Positions 217 to 4,944 of a stretch of 4,944 bases of DNA are shown here, piece by piece. A program made the position numbers and the translations under genes. The stretch's first letter is position 1; the number at the start of each line of letters is the position of its first letter. The stretch lies in IMG/VR virus record IMGVR_UViG_2713896780_000003. One strand, written 5' to 3'. The notes beneath the pieces are model-generated. The model was not told where the DNA came from and did not search any database. It saw only the letters and a list, made by a program, of their open reading frames with translations. The DNA comes from a virus (Duplodnaviria > Heunggongvirae > Uroviricota > Caudoviricetes).

Positions 217-845
217 TTAAAGCTGCATCAACCTTTCCACCAGTTTATCTCTGCGAACAACAAACCAACCATTGGCTCTCGCCAGTTCCAGCCATGACTC
301 AAGGGAAATAACAATATCATCATCCCGTAACTGAATTGTGGAAACAGTGACACCGCCTCTCTGATAACAGAGAACTCGCGTGTCGTAACTTTTCTGGCAT
401 GAAACTGGCGCTGACGGATCCTTTTGTCTGAAATAGCAGTCTTCCAGCTTTTCGAACACATCCCACGCCTGATCGGTTTCCAGCATTTTGGCATGACGGG
501 CTGCTCCGCGTTCTGTCCAGAGGATGAGGGAGCGGGCTTTCGGGGAAATTTGTAACCCTCTTAAAGATGGTTGCAAATTTTGTGAGTAGTTTAAAGCTAC
601 CCGCAAATTTTTCAGGGCATCGCCAGCCACTTTGAAAAAATGCTTTCCTTCAATAAAGCGCTCAGCATTTCTGGCGTAGTTATTTTGAATGTTCTTAACT
701 CCAGCACCGTACAACTGCGCCAAAAGTTCGGTGGTAATAACAGGAATCTGGTTATGGGTGATCGGGNNNNNNNNNNNNNNNNNNNNNNNNNNNNNNNNNN
801 NNNNNNNNNNNNNNNNAGAGTTTCAACAGAAATTTGAGTTGTCAT
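217..845 (-). CDS. ORF6N-domain antirepressor-like phage protein, interrupted by N-run 767-816
   Basis: ATG at 845..843 (MTTQISVET) is preceded by GAGGG about 8 nt upstream. After the N-run the open frame reads ...PITHNQIPVITTELLAQLYGAGVKNIQNNYARNAERFIEGKHFF...ILWTERGAARHAKMLETDQAWDVFEKL and stops with TAA at 219..217. The LYG...RN.ERF...LWTE.GA pattern matches my recollection of the ORF6N antirepressor-type domain. The frames either side of the N-run differ, so the true length is unknown. Confidence 0.55.
767..816. other. Masked or unknown sequence (50 N)
   Basis: Run of N characters inside the ORF6N-like gene. Confidence 0.95.
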
Positions 846-1005
846 AATGACGCCCTCTGGTGGTTTCTAAACCATCACCACCGTCAGGTTCCTAATCATC
901 GGGTGGTGAGACGTACAGGGTTAGGAACTACCGGGAAACCAACCGGCGAGCTTTTCAGCTCCCCCATACGCCCCACCATAATTCAGATGTGCGCGTGCAT
1001 ACGAC

Positions 1006-1030
1006 AATAAAAAACACGCTCGCGGCGTGT
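1006..1030 (-). terminator. tR'-like intrinsic terminator downstream of the late promoter
   Basis: Minus-strand transcript reads ACACGC-CGCGA-GCGTGT followed by TTTTTATT: a 6-bp stem (plus 1014-1019 paired with 1025-1030), 5-nt loop, U-tract from plus 1006-1013. Confidence 0.5.
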
Positions 1031-1086
1031 GTCTGTCGCGGTCTCTATCCGGGGTTCCTAATCCCGACGCCAGATTTTGCTGGCGC
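1008..1086 (-). ncRNA. Predicted short leader transcript from the pR'-like promoter to the tR'-like terminator (about 80 nt, lambda 6S-RNA-like)
   Basis: Inferred from promoter and terminator positions. It begins with hairpin CGCCAG-CAAAAT-CTGGCG (plus 1068-1085) and ends at the terminator. Start site is estimated, not observed. Confidence 0.3.
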
Positions 1087-1092
1087 GTGAGG

Positions 1093-1122
1093 AATATAGC
1101 CCCGGATAACAGATTGAGTCAA
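1093..1122 (-). promoter_or_regulatory. Sigma70 promoter, pR'-like late promoter overlapping the stop codon of the Q-like gene
   Basis: Minus strand reads TTGACT (plus 1122..1117) then 18 bp then TATATT (plus 1098..1093). The -35 overlaps the TGA stop at 1121..1119. The spacer contains CCCCGGATA. Confidence 0.5.
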
Positions 1123-1673: not shown

Positions 1674-1960
1674 AAATATCCCTCCTTTCTCCAGATTTCT
1701 TGTGTGCGAAAAACACCTTCTGCATGCATCAGGCGTAATTCTTCTTTGGTGTAATCGCCGGTTTTTACCCGCCCGTCGATTAAATCGTGGCACGAGCTAC
1801 AGGCAATCGCTGCCTGCATATCGTGTGGCTTTATCGCTGTTCCGCACGTTCCCGCCAGTCGGTAATGCGCCAGCACAGACGTTTCGGGATTGTGATTGCA
1901 GTAGCCAGGGATTCTGACCTGGCACATCTGGCCCCGCGCTGCTTTACGTAAATCCACCAT
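1670..1960 (-). CDS. DUF1364 / YbcO-like small Cys-rich nin-region protein (96 aa)
   Basis: ATG at 1960..1958 with GGAG 8 nt upstream. Protein MVDLRKAARGQMCQVRIPGYCNHNPETSVLAH... with conserved Cys spacing resembles the YbcO-type prophage proteins as I recall them. Start shares a base with the upstream stop (TAATG). Confidence 0.55.
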   Translation of the reverse strand: MVDLRKAARGQMCQVRIPGYCNHNPETSVLAHYRLAGTCGTAIKPHDMQAAIACSSCHDLIDGRVKTGDYTKEELRLMHAEGVFRTQEIWRKEGYL

Positions 1961-2559
1961 TACGCAAACTCCAGCAGCTGCGCGGCCACATTTTCGACTT
2001 CCTCCAAAGAGGAGAATTTACGGAACAGGATCCAGTTCCACAGGACGTTAAGTACGGCTTTATAAACCTGTTGAAATTCAGTTTCGTCCATATTCGCAAA
2101 AGCAATGGACTTCGCCCGACGCCCGCGGCTACCGTCTGGATAAAAATGCTCGGTGTAGAAGCCGGCCTGAATGGTCACCCACTCGCGGAAAGCGTCAAAT
2201 GATTTGAGCAATGCCATATCCTGGGTTCTGCGTGTCGCAACGGTATTCAGATATTGTTCCGCGGCATCACTCAGAGCTGGCGTATGTTCCCTGCCTACTG
2301 ATTCACACAGGTAATCAACGAAGCCAAACACCATTTCTCGTTCGCGAGGTGTGATCGCCCCACCGATCGGAGTCCAGTAATCGAATCCGAGTTGCAGAAG
2401 TTTAAAAAAACGCTTATGGAATGCGTAGTTACGAACGCGCTTAAAATCAGCGTGTATCCACTCGCCTATTTTGATTTGATACAGAAAATCGCAACTCTCC
2501 GGCGTCGCCGGGAGAAGTAAACCAGAAGAAGTTTGTTTGACCAGTTGTATATGCGCCAT
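1960..2559 (-). CDS. DUF1367-like lambdoid nin-region protein (199 aa)
   Basis: ATG at 2559..2557 with GGAGA 7 nt upstream; uninterrupted 199-codon frame with even composition. The family name is from memory of prophage nin-region proteins, not a search. Confidence 0.5.
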   Translation of the reverse strand: MAHIQLVKQTSSGLLLPATPESCDFLYQIKIGEWIHADFKRVRNYAFHKRFFKLLQLGFDYWTPIGGAITPREREMVFGFVDYLCESVGREHTPALSDAAEQYLNTVATRRTQDMALLKSFDAFREWVTIQAGFYTEHFYPDGSRGRRAKSIAFANMDETEFQQVYKAVLNVLWNWILFRKFSSLEEVENVAAQLLEFA

Positions 2560-2630
2560 CGTAGTTCTCCGCTGGCGCAGTAGAATGGGTGTTCAGCCCG
2601 TTATGTAGTATACCAGAATTAATGCCAATA

Positions 2631-2843
2631 CTAACAGGATGCTCTGACTCGCAATTCATCCAGCAGTTTATCATTTCCCATAATGTCACTTACCCTCATC
2701 GGTAAAAAAATTGCCTTTCGACCATTACGATACATCATTGATTTTGGGGTTTCAGGGAAGTAATCCATTTCGACTATAACTGACAGGTCATCACGACGTA
2801 TGACTGCGTATTTGCAACTAAATAGTTTCTTTATTTTTTCCAC
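2631..2843 (-). CDS. Hypothetical small protein (70 aa) downstream of the AT-rich island
   Basis: Internal GTG at 2843..2841 is preceded by GGAGG (plus 2852..2848). The ORF track's GTG at 2882 has no ribosome-binding site. Product MEKIKKLFSCKYAVIRRDDLSVIVEMDYFPETPKSMMYRNGRKAIFLPMRVSDIMGNDKLLDELRVRASC (first residue from GTG); no family recognised. Confidence 0.4.
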   Translation of the reverse strand: MEKIKKLFSCKYAVIRRDDLSVIVEMDYFPETPKSMMYRNGRKAIFLPMRVSDIMGNDKLLDELRVRASC

Positions 2844-3028
2844 GATGCCTCCGAGTTTATAAGTACAAACGGTTATATCCACATAGAGACAAAAATATTA
2901 ATCTGAGAAATATTTATTTCACGCTGTATATTTGATTATTTAATGTGCAGGTACAATGACTTTTATTTTTTGTTGTGTATATAATCAAATATATGGTTAT
3001 TTTTCACCCTGCGCATTCAGCACGCAAC

Positions 3029-3051
3029 AAAAAACCCGCCGAAGCGGGTTT
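3029..3051 (-). terminator. Strong rho-independent terminator with UUCG tetraloop
   Basis: Minus-strand transcript reads AAACCCGC-UUCG-GCGGGUUU followed by UUU, giving six U after the GC stem. On the plus strand the same hairpin is followed by only TTTAG, so it mainly terminates minus-strand transcription. Confidence 0.6.
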
Positions 3052-3162
3052 AGTGCGGGTGCGTTGAGGATGCCTGACACATCAGAGGTGGCGGGAGATT
3101 ACTCCCNNNNNNNNNNNNNNNNNNNNNNNNNNNNNNNNNNNNNNNNNNNNNNNNNNCTTCAT
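3050..3162 (-). CDS. Small ORF with strong start signals, interior masked by N-run; 3' end uncertain
   Basis: ATG at 3162..3160 (MK...) is preceded by AAGGAG 9 nt upstream. Past the N-run one frame stays open to TAA at 3052..3050, directly abutting the terminator; the frame implied by a literal 50-nt gap stops earlier, near 3082. Confidence 0.25.
3107..3156. other. Masked or unknown sequence (50 N)
   Basis: Run of N characters inside a small minus-strand ORF. Confidence 0.95.
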
Positions 3163-3214
3163 AGCCTGCTTCTCCTTGCCTTTCGGCACGTAAGAGGCTA
3201 ACCTACGTGTGTAG

Positions 3215-3244
3215 AGCATAGATATGGCCTCAGATTAATGTTAA
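3215..3244 (-). promoter_or_regulatory. Candidate sigma70 promoter with operator-like repeats for the small ORF at 3162
   Basis: Minus strand reads TTAACA (plus 3244..3239) then 18 bp then TATGCT (plus 3220..3215). The -35 lies within one of two TAATGTTAA direct repeats (plus 3236-3244 and 3262-3270) that flank the imperfect palindrome GCGTCTTGCCGGACGC. Confidence 0.3.
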
Positions 3245-3356
3245 GCGTCTTGCCGGACGCGTAATGTTAACTGGGGCTTTTCTCTGTCTGCCTTACGGTG
3301 GCATGCCCGAGGCAGATAGCCTCAAGCACCCGCAGCAATTCTACTTAACTCTCGCT

Positions 3357-3449
3357 TTACCGCANNNNNNNNNNNNNNNNNNNNNNNNNNNNNNNNNNNN
3401 NNNNNNNNNNNNNNGCACCTTCCATTGCCAGTGAAATATCATCCGACAT
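3357..3449 (-). CDS. Small protein (about 30 aa if the gap is literal), interior masked by N-run
   Basis: ATG at 3449..3447 with AAGGAGG 4 nt upstream, reading MSDDISLAMEGA before the N-run. All three frames stop within 42 nt after the gap; the frame consistent with a 50-nt gap ends with TAA at 3359..3357. Confidence 0.35.
   Translation of the reverse strand: MSDDISLAMEGXXXXXXXXXXXXXXXXXXR
3365..3414. other. Masked or unknown sequence (50 N)
   Basis: Run of N characters inside a small minus-strand ORF. Confidence 0.95.
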
Positions 3450-3484
3450 ATTCCCTCCTTTGGTGTTAATCCCGGCGAACGTTT

Positions 3485-3568
3485 TTACCCCCACCGACAA
3501 ATAACATATACTAAAAAAGCGATAGCCATAGCAACGCCTGTAATTGCAAATGCTTCAGGCCAGTTCAT
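3485..3568 (-). CDS. 27-aa hydrophobic, probably membrane-spanning, peptide translationally coupled to the DUF551-like gene
   Basis: ATG at 3568..3566 overlaps the upstream TGA (ATGA), with AGGAGG 7 nt upstream. Product MNWPEAFAITGVAMAIAFLVYVICRWG has a roughly 18-residue hydrophobic core; TAA at 3487..3485. Absent from the ORF track because of its length. Confidence 0.45.
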   Translation of the reverse strand: MNWPEAFAITGVAMAIAFLVYVICRWG

Positions 3569-3918
3569 TGGCGCACCTCCTGCGGCGGTTCTGGTAGCGG
3601 CATCCAGTGTGTGGCTTCACACACGATGGGCGCACCGAAATACTGCGCATACTGGAAGTCACCCGTATTATCCAGGTTAAAACCTGTAAACTGTTCACCC
3701 GTGCTGGACACAAACAGTTGTACATCAACACCAACTGGCGGCATTCGCTCACTACAGCTTATCCAACCATCCGGAGTTACCGGAGAATTGCCAGCCTTGC
3801 GCATGGCAATCTCCATGATTTCAACCATATCTCCTGGTGGAATTTTACAATGCTGACCAATATGCCTCTGCTGCCTGGCATATTCGAGGATGTGCTCCAG
3901 CTTGATACGATTAATCAT
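3565..3918 (-). CDS. DUF551-like phage protein (117 aa)
   Basis: ATG at 3918..3916 with GGGAG 7 nt upstream. C-terminal region ...GWISCSERMPP...THWMPLPEPP matches my recollection of the DUF551 signature. Start overlaps the upstream stop (ATGA). Confidence 0.6.
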   Translation of the reverse strand: MINRIKLEHILEYARQQRHIGQHCKIPPGDMVEIMEIAMRKAGNSPVTPDGWISCSERMPPVGVDVQLFVSSTGEQFTGFNLDNTGDFQYAQYFGAPIVCEATHWMPLPEPPQEVRQ

Positions 3919-4205
3919 GATTTATCTCCCTGAAGCATGGCTTCGCGGCAGTCGTTCCAGCCTTCAGCATAATCACTATACGCAAGAGGCCAACCGTTTC
4001 TGTATTCACGCGGCAACTTATCAGGCACTACCAGCGCTGGCGGCGCGGAGAATAGTGGTTTAGGTGATATTTCCGCACGTTTTGCGTATGCTTCAACTGT
4101 GTCAGGGTTAAACAGGATTATGTTTTCACCGCATTCCCACGCTATCGGTTCTGCTTCCAGCGATGCCAGTGCAATTTTGAATAGCTCACCCTCTACCCTG
4201 GCCAT
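3915..4205 (-). CDS. Hypothetical phage protein (96 aa), mildly acidic
   Basis: Uninterrupted 96-codon frame from ATG at 4205..4203; first canonical start after an in-frame stop. Ribosome-binding site is weak. Its stop overlaps the next start. No family recognised. Confidence 0.5.
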   Translation of the reverse strand: MARVEGELFKIALASLEAEPIAWECGENIILFNPDTVEAYAKRAEISPKPLFSAPPALVVPDKLPREYRNGWPLAYSDYAEGWNDCREAMLQGDKS

Positions 4206-4296
4206 CTCTGAATTAGGGTAACAGTTCGCAACCGCTATTTTTAATTTGGCTTCTTCGATTAATTTCTCTTTTGGTTAATTCAGTCACTTTTCATTA

Positions 4297-4312
4297 CCGC
4301 CCTTTCGGGCGG
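4297..4312 (-). other. Intergenic GC-rich stem-loop with GNRA loop, flanked by a Shine-Dalgarno sequence and a 4-codon mini-ORF
   Basis: Minus strand reads TAA-tgtc-AGGAGG-CCGCCC-GAAA-GGGCGG-ta-ATG AAA AGT GAC TGA. No U-tract follows in either orientation, so it is not a classical terminator. Confidence 0.4.
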
Positions 4313-4322
4313 CCTCCTGACA

Positions 4323-4535
4323 TTAATCGTTGTGATAACTCATAGCTTCATTTGCAGCATCAACTGGATCAACATCCCACCAGCAATAATTTGGGTCGAC
4401 ACCTTCAGGTGTCCACGGCTCTAATTCATTTTTTGCCGCATTCTCGTCGCCAGTAATTTTAAAAATCTGCTCTGAGAACTTTTTCACCCACTCGTTATAT
4501 TTTTCAGCGTTAATAACTTTCTGTGCGTTTGACAT
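4323..4535 (-). CDS. Small acidic hypothetical protein (70 aa)
   Basis: ATG at 4535..4533 with a G-rich stretch (GGGGG) about 8 nt upstream; TAA at 4325..4323. Product MSNAQKVINAEKYNEWVKKFSEQIFKITGDENAAKNELEPWTPEGVDPNYCWWDVDPVDAANEAMSYHND has about 14 acidic versus 6 basic residues. Confidence 0.55.
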   Translation of the reverse strand: MSNAQKVINAEKYNEWVKKFSEQIFKITGDENAAKNELEPWTPEGVDPNYCWWDVDPVDAANEAMSYHND

Positions 4536-4583
4536 TGATATACCCCCGGTTAAGGATTAAATTTTTAACAGAGCTAAATTTAA

Positions 4584-4940
4584 TTATTCAGTTCTGGATT
4601 TTGTCACCCTGCGTATCCGCGCTTTCACGTTACGCTCAATCTGAATTAGCTTTTCTATATTTCTCCGCCTTTCCCGTTCCTCCTGGCGCAAGATCCTTAC
4701 ATCATCTGCCAGTCTGGTTTCTCTTTTCGCCACAGAGAGCATCCAGTCAAATGGCTCCACAACTGCACCGCAGATTTTACAGCGGACCTGACGCTCTTTT
4801 TCGTCAACCCGGACAGAGGCGTGATGGCAATATGGTCTTTCCGATGGCTCATAGAGAAAATTAACCTGATTACGTGGGTCATCCTCTTTTACCGGAAATA
4901 AAACGATATTGCTTAACTCATCTTCTGGTTTTATTTCCAT
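4584..4940 (-). CDS. Zn-ribbon-like protein with basic coiled-coil tail (118 aa)
   Basis: Open frame from ATG at 4940..4938, four nt from the window edge, so upstream signals cannot be checked and the true start may lie outside. Contains C-H-H then 13 residues then C-x2-C (YCHHASVRVDEKERQVRCKICG) and an Arg/Glu-rich C-terminus. Confidence 0.45.
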   Translation of the reverse strand: MEIKPEDELSNIVLFPVKEDDPRNQVNFLYEPSERPYCHHASVRVDEKERQVRCKICGAVVEPFDWMLSVAKRETRLADDVRILRQEERERRRNIEKLIQIERNVKARIRRVTKSRTE

Positions 4941-4944
4941 GCTC

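What the first reader, a model, noticed from the sequence alone, without database searches (positions are those of the whole stretch)
2690..3030. Very AT-rich island after a strong terminator, followed by a small gene with its own ribosome-binding site
By hand count positions 2881-3000 are about 22-23 percent GC against roughly 50 percent in flanking genes. The island follows the UUCG-loop terminator and precedes a 70-aa ORF with a GGAGG site. Terminator, AT-rich promoter region and small gene is the moron arrangement described for lambdoid phages. Such AT-rich tracts are typical H-NS-bound, horizontally acquired regulatory DNA. The product has no recognisable family.
Basis: partly seen in the sequence, partly recalled or inferred. 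Interest (0 to 1): 0.55.

Follow-up and report, generated by a model that had tools for sequence, protein, structure and literature searches.

The report
Prophage antirepressor gene with AT-rich control region
The small gene behind the AT-rich stretch is most likely a hidden relative of the Gifsy/Rem "antirepressor" proteins that switch dormant phages on. Here it has an AT-rich control region instead of the usual DNA-damage (LexA) switch, so it is an ordinary kind of gene under an unknown trigger.

Summary
A UUCG-loop terminator (3051..3032) is followed by an AT-rich island (2881-3000 = 22.5% GC, window mean 46.5%). After the island come GGAGG (2852..2848) and a GTG-initiated 70-aa ORF (2843..2631).

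- **The terminator is not part of the module.** It is the 3' end of a hok/sok toxin-antitoxin locus.
- **The ORF is a real gene.** Against a 74%-identical copy, pN is 0.19 and pS is 0.79.
- **The ORF has a family.** It sits in PHROG 1813, a widespread Enterobacterales prophage family that is homologous to GfoA, the Gifsy-1 antirepressor (hhalign 97.7%, E 2e-12). Through PHROG 340 it is also linked to Rem, the DicA antirepressor of Qin.
- **Position and partner fit.** It occupies the rem/gfoA position, directly upstream of the irsA-type DUF1367 gene, in Rac-like prophages whose repressors are short, DicA-type and lack a cleavage domain.
- **The island stands where relatives have a LexA box.** This includes an E. 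coli variant in the same slot. The island carries no LexA box and only a weak promoter candidate, though its -10 position is conserved.

Verdict: an unannotated member of a known antirepressor family with a non-SOS regulatory region, not a classical moron. Antirepressor activity and the promoter are inferred, not shown.

The parts
3157..3331 (-). hok/sok type I toxin-antitoxin RNA region: the 5' part of hok mRNA with the mok/sok target. The hok ATG is at 3162..3160, and most of the CDS is hidden in the N run 3107-3156.
   Evidence: Rfam RF01794 sok, 112.6 bits, E 6.5e-26. An identical genome annotates a Hok/Gef family protein here. The N run stands for 162 real bases.
3024..3106 (-). hok mRNA 3' UTR ending in the UUCG-loop intrinsic terminator (stem-loop 3051..3032, T-run 3031..3024).
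   Evidence: Terminator scan. RNA fold -35.2 kcal/mol, z -4.15. The same 3' end follows hokD in K-12 Qin and this stretch matches in about 3,200 E. coli genomes.
2844..3023 (-). AT-rich island (core 2881-3000, 22.5% GC): the 5' regulatory and leader region of the small gene.
   Evidence: Composition. It travels with the ORF as one unit in 173 of 5,426 complete E. coli genomes. A homologous 23%-GC island precedes the Salmonella homologue (L090). It stands in the place of a LexA-box promoter in variant L087.
2895..2922 (-). Best coding-strand promoter candidate: -35 GTGAAA (2922..2917), 16-nt spacer, -10 TAATAT (2900..2895). Predicted start is about 2888, giving a 5' UTR of about 45 nt.
   Evidence: The PWM score of 7.2 is unremarkable on its own. 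However, a -10-like hexamer lies at the same alignment column in the window, L007, L004, L005 (GTGAAA-17-TATATT, score 9.9) and Salmonella L090. This is inferred, not mapped.
2956..2985 (+). Strongest sigma-70-like match in the island, but on the opposite strand (ATGACT-18-TATAAT), pointing towards the hok 3' end.
   Evidence: score 11.2, third best in the window. The -10 is destroyed in the divergent copy L005 (TCTAAT). Significance is unknown.
2848..2852 (-). Shine-Dalgarno GGAGG, 4 nt upstream of the GTG start.
   Evidence: Direct reading. GGAGGCAT(C/A)GTG is kept in all six aligned E. coli-type copies, which include the phage record L002.
2631..2843 (-). 70-aa ORF with a GTG start: predicted GfoA/Rem-type small antirepressor (PHROG 1813).
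   Evidence: Purifying selection against L005: 33.5 synonymous and 31.5 non-synonymous differences, pS 0.79, pN 0.19, differences by codon position 17/9/39. phrog_1813 E 5.8e-33. Family profile against GfoA: hhalign 97.7%, E 2e-12. HMM E 2e-15 for the 140-sequence family and 2.5e-6 for the E. coli subfamily alone. AF2 pLDDT 82, four beta strands plus a C-terminal helix.
2704..2710 (-). T7 homopolymer inside the ORF (A7 on the + strand).
   Evidence: Truncated database variants P0012, P0013 and P0017 diverge exactly here (...FFT DE...). Whether these are real frameshifts or sequencing errors was not resolved.
2560..2630 (-). Conserved leader of the DUF1367 gene and 3' boundary of the cassette. 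It contains the extended -10-like TGGTATACT (2615..2607) and a covarying hairpin GGG-CUGAACA-CCC (2599..2587).
   Evidence: Homology to cassette-free prophages resumes here. The hairpin stem shows 4 of 5 pairs with compensatory changes and 93.5% of cells paired, against 14-39% in slid controls, across Escherichia, Salmonella, Klebsiella and Dickeya.
1960..2559 (-). DUF1367 gene, a homologue of the 200-aa gene that follows the antirepressor in Gifsy prophages (the position Lemire et al. name irsA). It is the constant downstream partner of the antirepressor gene.
   Evidence: Pfam PF07105, E 9.7e-96. The gene downstream of GfoA in L022 and of the family member in Dickeya L018 is the same family. 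The dinI-antirepressor-irsA operon is described in PMC3121763.

Best explanation
The 70-aa ORF (2843..2631, minus strand) most likely encodes a small Gifsy/Rem-type antirepressor.

**Proposed mechanism (inferred).** When made, the protein would bind the prophage's short, non-cleavable DicA-type repressor and remove it from its operators. This would start lytic transcription of the Rac-like prophage, and possibly of heteroimmune relatives in the same cell.

**Role of the island (inferred).** The AT-rich island is the gene's own 5' regulatory region. The hok terminator blocks transcription coming from upstream, so expression needs a promoter inside the island. The best candidate has its -10 at 2900..2895. 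In relatives this position holds a LexA-controlled promoter, but here there is no LexA box. The trigger is therefore something other than direct LexA derepression and is unknown. The AT-rich DNA and the non-AUG start would keep expression very low in the lysogen.

**Shown here**
- The ORF is a gene under purifying selection.
- It is homologous to GfoA and linked to Rem.
- It has the synteny of the known antirepressor genes.
- The prophage repressor is of the DicA type.
- The LexA box is present in relatives and absent here.

**Inferred only**
- Antirepressor activity.
- The promoter.
- Silencing of the island.

My estimates: homology about 0.9, antirepressor function about 0.65, island as its promoter or regulatory region about 0.5.
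For: **Homology**
- The window ORF hits phrog_1813 at 5.8e-33.
- Family members P0043, the SPN3UB ORF and P0137 hit both phrog_1813 and phrog_340 (1.2e-10, 4.7e-6 and 2e-5). K-12 Rem hits phrog_340 at 4.4e-21.
- The GfoA sequence was recovered with the published cloning primers. It hits phrog_340 at 7.6e-21 and phrog_1813 at 3.5e-11.
- hhalign of the family alignment A3 against GfoA gives 97.7%, E 2e-12 over 71 columns.
- Local HMMs against GfoA give 2e-15 (140-sequence family) and 2.5e-6 (E. coli subfamily only).

**Function of relatives**
- GfoA and GftA bind and inactivate Gifsy repressors (PMC3121763).
- Rem derepresses the DicA-controlled dicBp promoter 165-fold (PMC10448788).

**Synteny**
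- The antirepressor lies directly upstream of the DUF1367 (irsA-type) gene in Gifsy, SPN3UB, the IMG/VR GfoA contig, Dickeya and the window.
- K-12 rem sits in the same slot, after the hokD terminator and before ydfU.

**Partner repressor**
- The prophage repressor is a 139-aa HTH_3 protein with no peptidase domain. It is 29% identical to DicA over its full length, E 2e-15.
- The same repressor type is present in four other carriers.

**Regulatory region**
- Perfect-core LexA boxes precede homologues in Klebsiella, Citrobacter (upstream of a dinI-ORF pair) and Dickeya.
- E. coli variant L087 has one in the very same slot (TACTGTATATAATTACAGTG, 27 nt before the ATG).
- The window and the other island-type copies have none.
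- The island is conserved into Salmonella (L090, 23% GC) with a -10-like hexamer at a fixed alignment column.

**Shared start-codon quirk**
- A non-AUG start recurs across the family: GTG in the window, Klebsiella, Citrobacter, Dickeya and GftA, and TTG or GTG in GfoA.
Against: - No experiment bears on this protein.
- The window ORF itself does not reach phrog_340 or Rem directly. Rem against the family HMM gives E 0.01, and hhalign probability is 1.7%. The link to Rem therefore runs through intermediates.
- Not every predicted family member acts on a given repressor. YpjJ, YeeT and YkfH did not derepress dicBp, and FsoA has no apparent role in inducing its own phage.
- No good sigma-70 promoter is found on the coding strand of the island. 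The best score is 7.2-7.6, ordinary for this window, while the strongest match lies on the other strand.
- Antirepressor and repressor alleles do not co-vary. A 64%-identical antirepressor (45 of 70 residues) occurs with the identical repressor (ZYB62), and a 94%-identical one occurs with an unalignable repressor (EC15). This fits Gifsy-like cross-reactivity but gives no specificity signal.
- No structural match supports any mechanism.
Confidence: 0.6

Rival explanations
1. The ORF is expressed only by read-through. It would be a delayed-early nin-region gene transcribed from the prophage's early-right promoter through the hok terminator, by antitermination or leakage. The island would be a spacer, a recombination scar or a nucleoid-protein nucleation site with no promoter. 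The protein, still an antirepressor homologue, would then act as positive feedback after derepression or on co-resident prophages, not as the primary trigger.
For: - No strong coding-strand promoter is found in the island.
- The gene is co-oriented with the whole early-right operon and has no terminator of its own.
- Fels-1 FsoA is controlled by the phage repressor and is dispensable for induction of its own phage.
Against: - The hairpin and T-run form a strong intrinsic terminator directly upstream.
- Relatives, including an E. coli allele in the same slot, carry their own LexA-controlled promoter at this position.
- The island is conserved between Escherichia and Salmonella, with a positionally fixed -10-like element.
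Confidence: 0.22
2. The module is a classical moron. It would be an autonomously transcribed accessory gene expressed from the repressed prophage, giving a host fitness or conversion function unrelated to phage regulation.
For: - It is a compositionally distinct insertion, absent from related prophages (L010).
- The slot upstream is a hotspot for accessory cargo such as hok/sok, doc, a methylase with an ATPase, McrB-like genes and AbiH.
Against: - The ORF is homologous to validated antirepressors.
- It is linked to the DUF1367 (irsA-type) gene in the great majority of the loci examined, across four genera. The exceptions are Klebsiella L011-14 and Citrobacter L015-17, where a different gene follows.
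- No downstream terminator is present.
- The preceding terminator belongs to hok.
- Constitutive expression of an antirepressor in a lysogen would be self-defeating.
Confidence: 0.08
3. The functional element of the island is on the plus strand. The promoter-like site at 2956-2985 would drive a short transcript, starting at about 2992, that runs antisense into the hok 3' end and terminator as an sRNA or antisense regulator. The AT-richness would reflect this promoter.
For: - It is the best sigma-70 match in the region (10 of 12 positions; PWM 11.2, third best in the window).
- It is kept in five of six copies.
Against: - The -10 loses its critical A2 in the divergent copy L005.
- No Rfam family matches.
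- On the plus strand the hairpin is followed by only TTTAGTG, a poor terminator.
- AT-rich DNA produces such matches readily. The scan found 4 sites against 1.9 +/- 1.4 expected.
Confidence: 0.07
4. The ORF is a chance open reading frame in AT-rich non-coding DNA.
For: - It is short and has no Pfam or NCBIfam hit.
- Several truncated versions exist in databases.
Against: - pN 0.19 against pS 0.79, with start, stop and length preserved in a 74%-identical copy.
- More than 300 protein clusters across Enterobacterales share conserved motifs.
- The AF2 model is confident (pLDDT 82).
Confidence: 0.02

Closest known systems
GfoA / GfhA, the LexA-controlled small antirepressors of Salmonella Gifsy-1 and Gifsy-3 (Lemire, Figueroa-Bossi and Bossi 2011, PMC3121763)
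   Same: - Detectable sequence homology (hhalign 97.7%, E 2e-12; HMM 2e-15).
- Size of 70-82 aa and a non-AUG start codon.
- Location in the nin region outside immunity, directly upstream of the irsA-type DUF1367 gene.
- The host prophage has a short HTH repressor without an autocleavage domain.
   Different: - About 17-31% identity only, and a different PHROG (1813 against 340).
- No dinI gene and no LexA box upstream. Instead there is a hok/sok locus, its terminator and a 22%-GC island.
- Activity is untested.
Rem, the antirepressor of DicA in the E. coli K-12 Qin prophage (Ragunathan and Vanderpool 2023, PMC10448788)
   Same: - Same genomic slot: immediately after the hokD terminator and before the DUF1367-containing gene.
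- Small protein (83 aa) with no LexA box and an unknown inducing signal.
- The partner is a DicA-type repressor.
   Different: - No direct pairwise similarity (BLASTP none; hhalign 1.7%). The relationship runs only through GfoA and phrog_340 intermediates.
- Rem's upstream region is not AT-rich (38-59% GC).
GftA (Gifsy-2) and FsoA (Fels-1) antirepressors
   Same: - GftA holds the same position between dinI and the irsA homologue and has a GUG start.
- FsoA is a precedent for a family member that is not under LexA control.
   Different: - GftA is in phrog_4847, with only marginal similarity (E 0.04-0.2) to the other groups.
- The FsoA sequence was not examined here.
Morons of lambdoid phages (promoter-gene-terminator insertions; Juhala et al. 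2000 and Hendrix et al. 2000, from my own knowledge)
   Same: - Extra, compositionally deviant DNA lies between two genes that are adjacent in related phages.
- It is preceded by a terminator.
   Different: - There is no terminator after the gene, and no clear promoter.
- The terminator in front belongs to hok.
- The gene is a phage regulatory gene with conserved synteny, not host-directed cargo.
Tum of coliphage 186 and AntC of N15 (LexA-controlled antirepressors cited in PMC3121763)
   Same: They use the same regulatory logic: a separate small protein inactivates a non-cleavable repressor.
   Different: They are larger or unrelated proteins under LexA control. No sequence comparison was made here.

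Membership tests
GfoA/Rem-type small prophage antirepressors | Sequence homology to an experimentally validated member | tested here: met
   Family alignment against GfoA: hhalign 97.7%, E 2e-12. HMM E 2e-15 for the full family and 2.5e-6 for the E. coli subfamily. GfoA hits phrog_1813 at 3.5e-11. The link to Rem is only indirect, via phrog_340.
GfoA/Rem-type small prophage antirepressors | Small protein (about 70-85 aa) encoded outside the immunity region, next to the irsA-type DUF1367 gene in the nin region | tested here: met
   The 70-aa ORF lies 71 nt upstream of DUF1367 and about 7 kb from the repressor gene. The same order is seen in Gifsy, SPN3UB, the GfoA contig and Dickeya.
GfoA/Rem-type small prophage antirepressors | The cognate prophage repressor is short, DicA/GfoR-like and lacks the LexA/CI-type autocleavage domain | tested here: met
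   A 139-aa protein with an HTH_3 domain only, 29% identical to DicA over its full length, E 2e-15. The same type is present in ZYB62, M19, EC15 and phage PP818812.1.
GfoA/Rem-type small prophage antirepressors | Direct LexA control (an SOS box at the promoter). This holds for the Gifsy members but not for Rem or FsoA. | tested here: not met
   No CTGT-N8-ACAG site with one core mismatch or fewer exists in the window or in the island-type E. coli and Salmonella loci. Perfect-core boxes are present in Klebsiella, Citrobacter, Dickeya, Gifsy and E. coli variant L087.
GfoA/Rem-type small prophage antirepressors | Binds the repressor and releases it from operator DNA, and its expression induces the prophage | not testable with these tools
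   This needs expression, reporter and pull-down experiments.
Lambdoid moron | Inserted between two genes that are adjacent in related phages | tested here: met
   In L010 the hok-type terminator is followed within about 60 nt by the DUF1367 start. Homology to the window breaks at about 2560-2583 and about 3025.
Lambdoid moron | Own sigma-70 promoter upstream of the gene | tested here: inconclusive
   Only weak coding-strand matches were found (7.2-7.6). One -10-like hexamer is positionally conserved across five diverged copies. No transcript data are available.
Lambdoid moron | Own factor-independent terminator downstream of the gene | tested here: not met
   No terminator-like site lies between the stop (2631) and the DUF1367 ATG (2559). 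The only other hit is a weak one inside DUF1367.
Lambdoid moron | Base composition different from neighbouring phage genes | tested here: met
   ORF GC 38% and GC3 37%, island 30%, against 47-52% for the neighbours.
hok/sok type I toxin-antitoxin (applies to the terminator and upstream RNA, not to the ORF) | Match to the sok/hok RNA model, a Hok peptide gene, and a 3' terminal hairpin | tested here: met
   RF01794, 112.6 bits against a gathering score of 59. A Hok/Gef CDS of 51 aa is annotated in the identical genome. The terminator is shared with hokD of K-12.

The most novel reading that the evidence does not exclude
The AT-rich island may be a signal-responsive, SOS-independent promoter, for example one silenced by a nucleoid protein and relieved by an environmental or host cue. 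In that case about 3% of E. coli strains, including O145, O55:H7 and some O157:H7, would carry Rac-like prophages whose induction switch has been rewired from DNA damage to another input. The rewiring would have happened by swapping the 5' region of the antirepressor gene. The LexA-box allele in the same slot (L087) would be the natural control.
Probability: 0.3. Interest if true: 0.6.

Novelty: new member of a known kind. Interest (0 to 1): 0.42.

Why it matters
**An annotation gap.** Prophages with DicA/RacR/GfoR-type repressors cannot be induced by repressor self-cleavage and depend on antirepressors. In E. coli only Rem has been tied to such a repressor, and its trigger is unknown. This gene is annotated 'hypothetical' everywhere, and PHROG 1813 is listed as 'unknown function'. 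Recognising it as a GfoA homologue assigns a testable role to more than 300 protein clusters in Enterobacterales prophages.

**A natural comparison.** The same gene in the same slot comes either with a LexA box or with an AT-rich island. That contrast offers a direct way to ask what signals other than SOS induce Rac-like prophages in pathogenic E. coli lineages. Expectations should stay modest: the gene belongs to a known kind, and the mechanism is inferred by homology.

Tried and rejected
- **83-aa reading (GTG 2882).** Rejected. It has no Shine-Dalgarno sequence and is not conserved in L005.
- **Pfam and NCBIfam.** No family for the ORF or for 18 relatives.
- **Sequence search of PDB with the family profile.** Nothing at E <= 10.
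- **Direct Rem comparison.** BLASTP gave nothing and hhalign 1.7%.
- **Repressor operator in the island.** The immunity-region palindromes (ATCACGAATCGTGAT, AACACAAGGTGTGTT) have no counterpart in the island of either of two genomes that share the identical repressor.
- **LexA box in the island.** None. The best half-site, CTGT-N8-TTAT, has three core mismatches.
- **16-nt inverted repeat 2927-2942 / 2978-2993 (94% complementary).** It is degraded in L004/L006 and L005 without compensation, so it is probably not functional.
- **5' UTR structure.** None beyond chance (z 0.46).
- **Rfam on the island.** Only generic terminator-like sub-threshold matches.
- **tRNA genes.** None.
- **Literature.** No paper was found on this subfamily or on a Rac-type antirepressor.
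- **Not done.** Curvature modelling and H-NS motif scoring were skipped because I had no reliable parameters. A-tracts at 3004, 2971, 2964 and 2895 show no obvious helical phasing.
Full report
**1. What is in the window**

The 4,944-bp window is the nin/Q region of a lambdoid, Rac-like E. coli prophage. All of its genes are on the minus strand. Its non-N segments match E. coli O145 RM9872 exactly, except the last one (3415-4944), where the RM9872 locus carries an IS3 copy within the corresponding stretch. The three 50-N runs are placeholders for 3, 162 and 113 real bases.

Reading along the minus strand, the order is:
- a zinc-ribbon protein and several small phage ORFs;
- a DUF551 protein;
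- a hok/sok locus (Rfam sok, 112.6 bits, 3331..3157; the hok ATG is at 3162 and most of the CDS is hidden in an N run);
- the hok 3' UTR and terminator;
- the AT-rich island;
- the 70-aa ORF;
- DUF1367 (2559..1960), YbcO/DUF1364, and a Q-like DUF1133 protein;
- isrK and C4-type RNAs, then an ORF6N protein.

**2. The observation**

- GC of 2881-3000 is 22.5%. This is the lowest region of the window (mean 46.5%, sd 6.3). Neighbouring genes are 47-52% GC and the ORF is 38%.
- The UUCG-loop terminator is at 3051..3032(-).
- GGAGG (2852..2848), then CATC, then GTG (2843) opens a 70-codon frame that ends at 2631. PGAP calls the same CDS.
- The 83-aa extension is not conserved.

**3. Is the ORF a gene?**

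Yes.
- A copy in E. coli ZYB62 is 74% identical in DNA. It keeps the GGAGGCATAGTG start, the stop and the length.
- Against that copy there are 33.5 synonymous and 31.5 non-synonymous differences (pS 0.79, pN 0.19). Differences by codon position are 17/9/39.

**4. What the cassette is**

The island and ORF travel as one unit.
- They occur together in 173 of 5,426 complete E. coli genomes.
- They are always directly upstream of DUF1367. The upstream neighbour varies: hok, doc/phd or an ATP-binding protein gene.
- Homology to other prophages breaks at about 2560-2583 and at about 3025.
- The slot can be empty (L010). It can also hold a rem-like ORF (L008), an AT-rich stretch with no annotated gene (L009), or rem itself in K-12 Qin.
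- It is therefore an exchangeable cassette of about 400 bp. It has no terminator of its own, and the terminator in front of it belongs to hok.

**5. The family**

Close homologues are limited to E. coli and Shigella. A profile search reaches much further.
- It found a family of 65-85 aa proteins with the motif GYAVIRC.D..VVA..d.FP...RALMYR.G..vsFmPl..dEIiGT..L...l..RAGY.
- More than 300 clusters were found in Citrobacter, Enterobacter, Klebsiella, Leclercia, Dickeya, Brenneria and others. All are annotated as hypothetical.
- With this alignment AlphaFold gives pLDDT 82: four beta strands and a C-terminal helix. No structural neighbour was found.

**6. The key lead: context of the distant homologues**

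The distant homologues sit in lambdoid nin regions. They are preceded by perfect-core LexA boxes:
- Klebsiella: TACTGTATGCATATACAGTA;
- Dickeya: TACTGTATTTTTGTACAGTA, 13 nt before the start codon;
- Citrobacter: a box upstream of a dinI-ORF pair.

Many phage records show dinI followed by a family member. This is the published architecture of the Gifsy antirepressor operon. That operon is a LexA box followed by dinI, a small GUG-initiated antirepressor and irsA (PMC3121763).

**7. Testing the lead**

- GftA was identified in Gifsy-2 by its cloning primers. It falls in phrog_4847.
- GfoA was recovered from IMG/VR contigs with primer pp866. It lies between a LexA box with dinI and a DUF1367 gene.
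- GfoA matches the family alignment at hhalign 97.7%, E 2e-12 over 71 columns.
- GfoA hits both phrog_340 (7.6e-21) and phrog_1813 (3.5e-11).
- Local HMMs against GfoA give 2e-15 (140 family members) and 2.5e-6 (E. coli subfamily alone).
- K-12 Rem is in phrog_340 (4.4e-21), and family members such as P0043 hit phrog_340 at 1.2e-10. Rem sits in the same slot and was shown to relieve DicA repression 165-fold (PMC10448788).
- Direct similarity between the window ORF and Rem is not detectable.

**8. The partner repressor**

- The window's prophage is integrated at ttcA and carries intR, recET, kil, and ydaS/ydaT-like genes.
- It encodes a 139-aa repressor with only an HTH_3 domain. This protein is 29% identical to DicA over its full length (E 2e-15) and has no peptidase domain.
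- Four other carriers have the same type. Three genomes share the identical protein. EC15 has an unalignable 139-aa repressor with the same C-terminal LLxLFxxLPxSE motif.
- Antirepressor and repressor alleles do not co-vary. This fits the cross-reactivity described for GfoA and GfhA, but it is not evidence in itself.

**9. The island as a regulatory region**

- No LexA box is present, and no copy of the immunity operators.
- No coding-strand promoter scores above 7.6. The best sigma-70 match (ATGACT-18-TATAAT, 2956-2985) is on the plus strand and is not kept in the divergent copy.
- E. coli variant L087 has the same slot, and the 3' half of its ORF is almost identical in DNA to the window. Yet it carries TACTGTATATAATTACAGTG, with TATAAT inside the box, 27 nt before its ATG. 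Island and SOS promoter are therefore alternative 5' regions of one gene. They were exchanged at a junction inside the coding sequence. The LexA-type allele is in 1 of 5,426 complete E. coli genomes.
- A Salmonella homologue (55% aa identity) is preceded by a homologous 23%-GC island after a hok-type terminator.
- A -10-like hexamer lies at the same alignment column in all five island-type sequences (window 2900..2895). In L005 it forms GTGAAA-17-TATATT, with a score of 9.9.
- Taken together, this supports, but does not prove, a weak or regulated promoter with a start near 2888.
- The predicted 5' UTR is unstructured. The 16-nt inverted repeat is not conserved.

**10. Conclusion**

It is not a classical moron, and its product is not an orphan. 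It is best read as a GfoA/Rem-family antirepressor gene whose SOS promoter position is occupied by an AT-rich region of unknown input, insulated from upstream transcription by the hok terminator.

Homology, synteny, repressor type and the LexA-box contrast are shown by the analyses above. Antirepressor activity, the promoter and any H-NS role are inferred.

Noticed in passing
window 2587-2599 (minus strand), with leader to 2560: A conserved hairpin lies in the leader of the DUF1367 gene. Its loop is (C)CUGAACA(A), and it is followed by CUGCUGCGCCAnCGGAGA. The stem co-varies across Escherichia, Salmonella, Klebsiella and Dickeya (GGG/CCC, CCAG/CUGG, UAGG/CCUA, CUGG/CCAG). Four of 5 pairs show compensatory changes, and 93.5% of cells are paired against 14-39% in slid controls. 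No Rfam family matches. It marks the 3' edge of the cassette. It could be a regulatory RNA element (boxB-like?) or a recombination boundary.
   Followed up: partly
window 899-1099 and 217-845 (minus strand): Downstream of the Q-like gene are matches to isrK (69.4 bits), C4 antisense RNA (67 bits) and the C4 a1/b1 target (47.8 bits). An ORF6N-domain protein follows. This resembles a P1/P7 immI-like or Gifsy-1 IsrK-type module. If so, it is a second, RNA-controlled antirepressor-like system in the same prophage.
   Followed up: no
window 767-816, 3107-3156, 3365-3414: The three 50-N runs are fixed-length placeholders for 3, 162 and 113 real bases in the identical genome. Window coordinates across them do not reflect true distances, and most of the hok CDS is hidden.
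   Followed up: yes
upstream of the antirepressor gene in L004/L006, L005, L007, L009, L011-14, L018; also L013 6308-7700: The position just upstream of this gene family is a hotspot for defence and addiction cargo. Examples seen are hok/sok, phd/doc, a DNA methylase with an HATPase protein, an MrcB_N/HNH protein, an S8 peptidase with an AAA ATPase, and AbiH. Kiwa (KwaA/KwaB) lies after Q in one Klebsiella prophage.
   Followed up: no
L009 1710-2180 (E. coli SW07091): The same slot between the hokD terminator and DUF1367 holds a different stretch of about 370 nt at 27-32% GC with no annotated gene. This is another AT-rich filler of unknown nature.
   Followed up: no
L002 / L085 (PP818812.1): 'Actinobacillus phage vB_Apl-pPE4' is 97% identical to this E. 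coli Rac-like prophage region. It carries recET, kil, a DicA-type repressor and hok. The host label looks doubtful. If the record is a real virion genome, phages carrying this cassette are viable.
   Followed up: partly
window 2704-2710 (T7 on the coding strand): Several database versions of the protein are truncated exactly at this homopolymer (P0012, P0013, P0017). Two 45-aa N-terminally shortened versions are named 'bacteriocin' by their source. These may be sequencing errors, pseudogenes or slippage.
   Followed up: no
window 2607-2615 (minus strand): An extended -10-like TGGTATACT lies between the ORF stop and the hairpin. It is kept in all E. coli copies and appears as TGTTATACT in the Salmonella copy. 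It may be an internal promoter for the DUF1367, YbcO and Q-like genes.
   Followed up: no
window 2927-2942 / 2978-2993 and 2966-2978 / 3022-3034: There are two inverted repeats in the island. One has 16-nt arms that are 94% complementary. The other has 13-nt arms, one of which is the terminator T-run. The first is not conserved in diverged copies.
   Followed up: partly
L011-L014 4299-4691 (Klebsiella): In Klebsiella the family member is followed by a 130-aa LexA_DNA_bind-domain protein instead of DUF1367, behind the same conserved leader hairpin.
   Followed up: no
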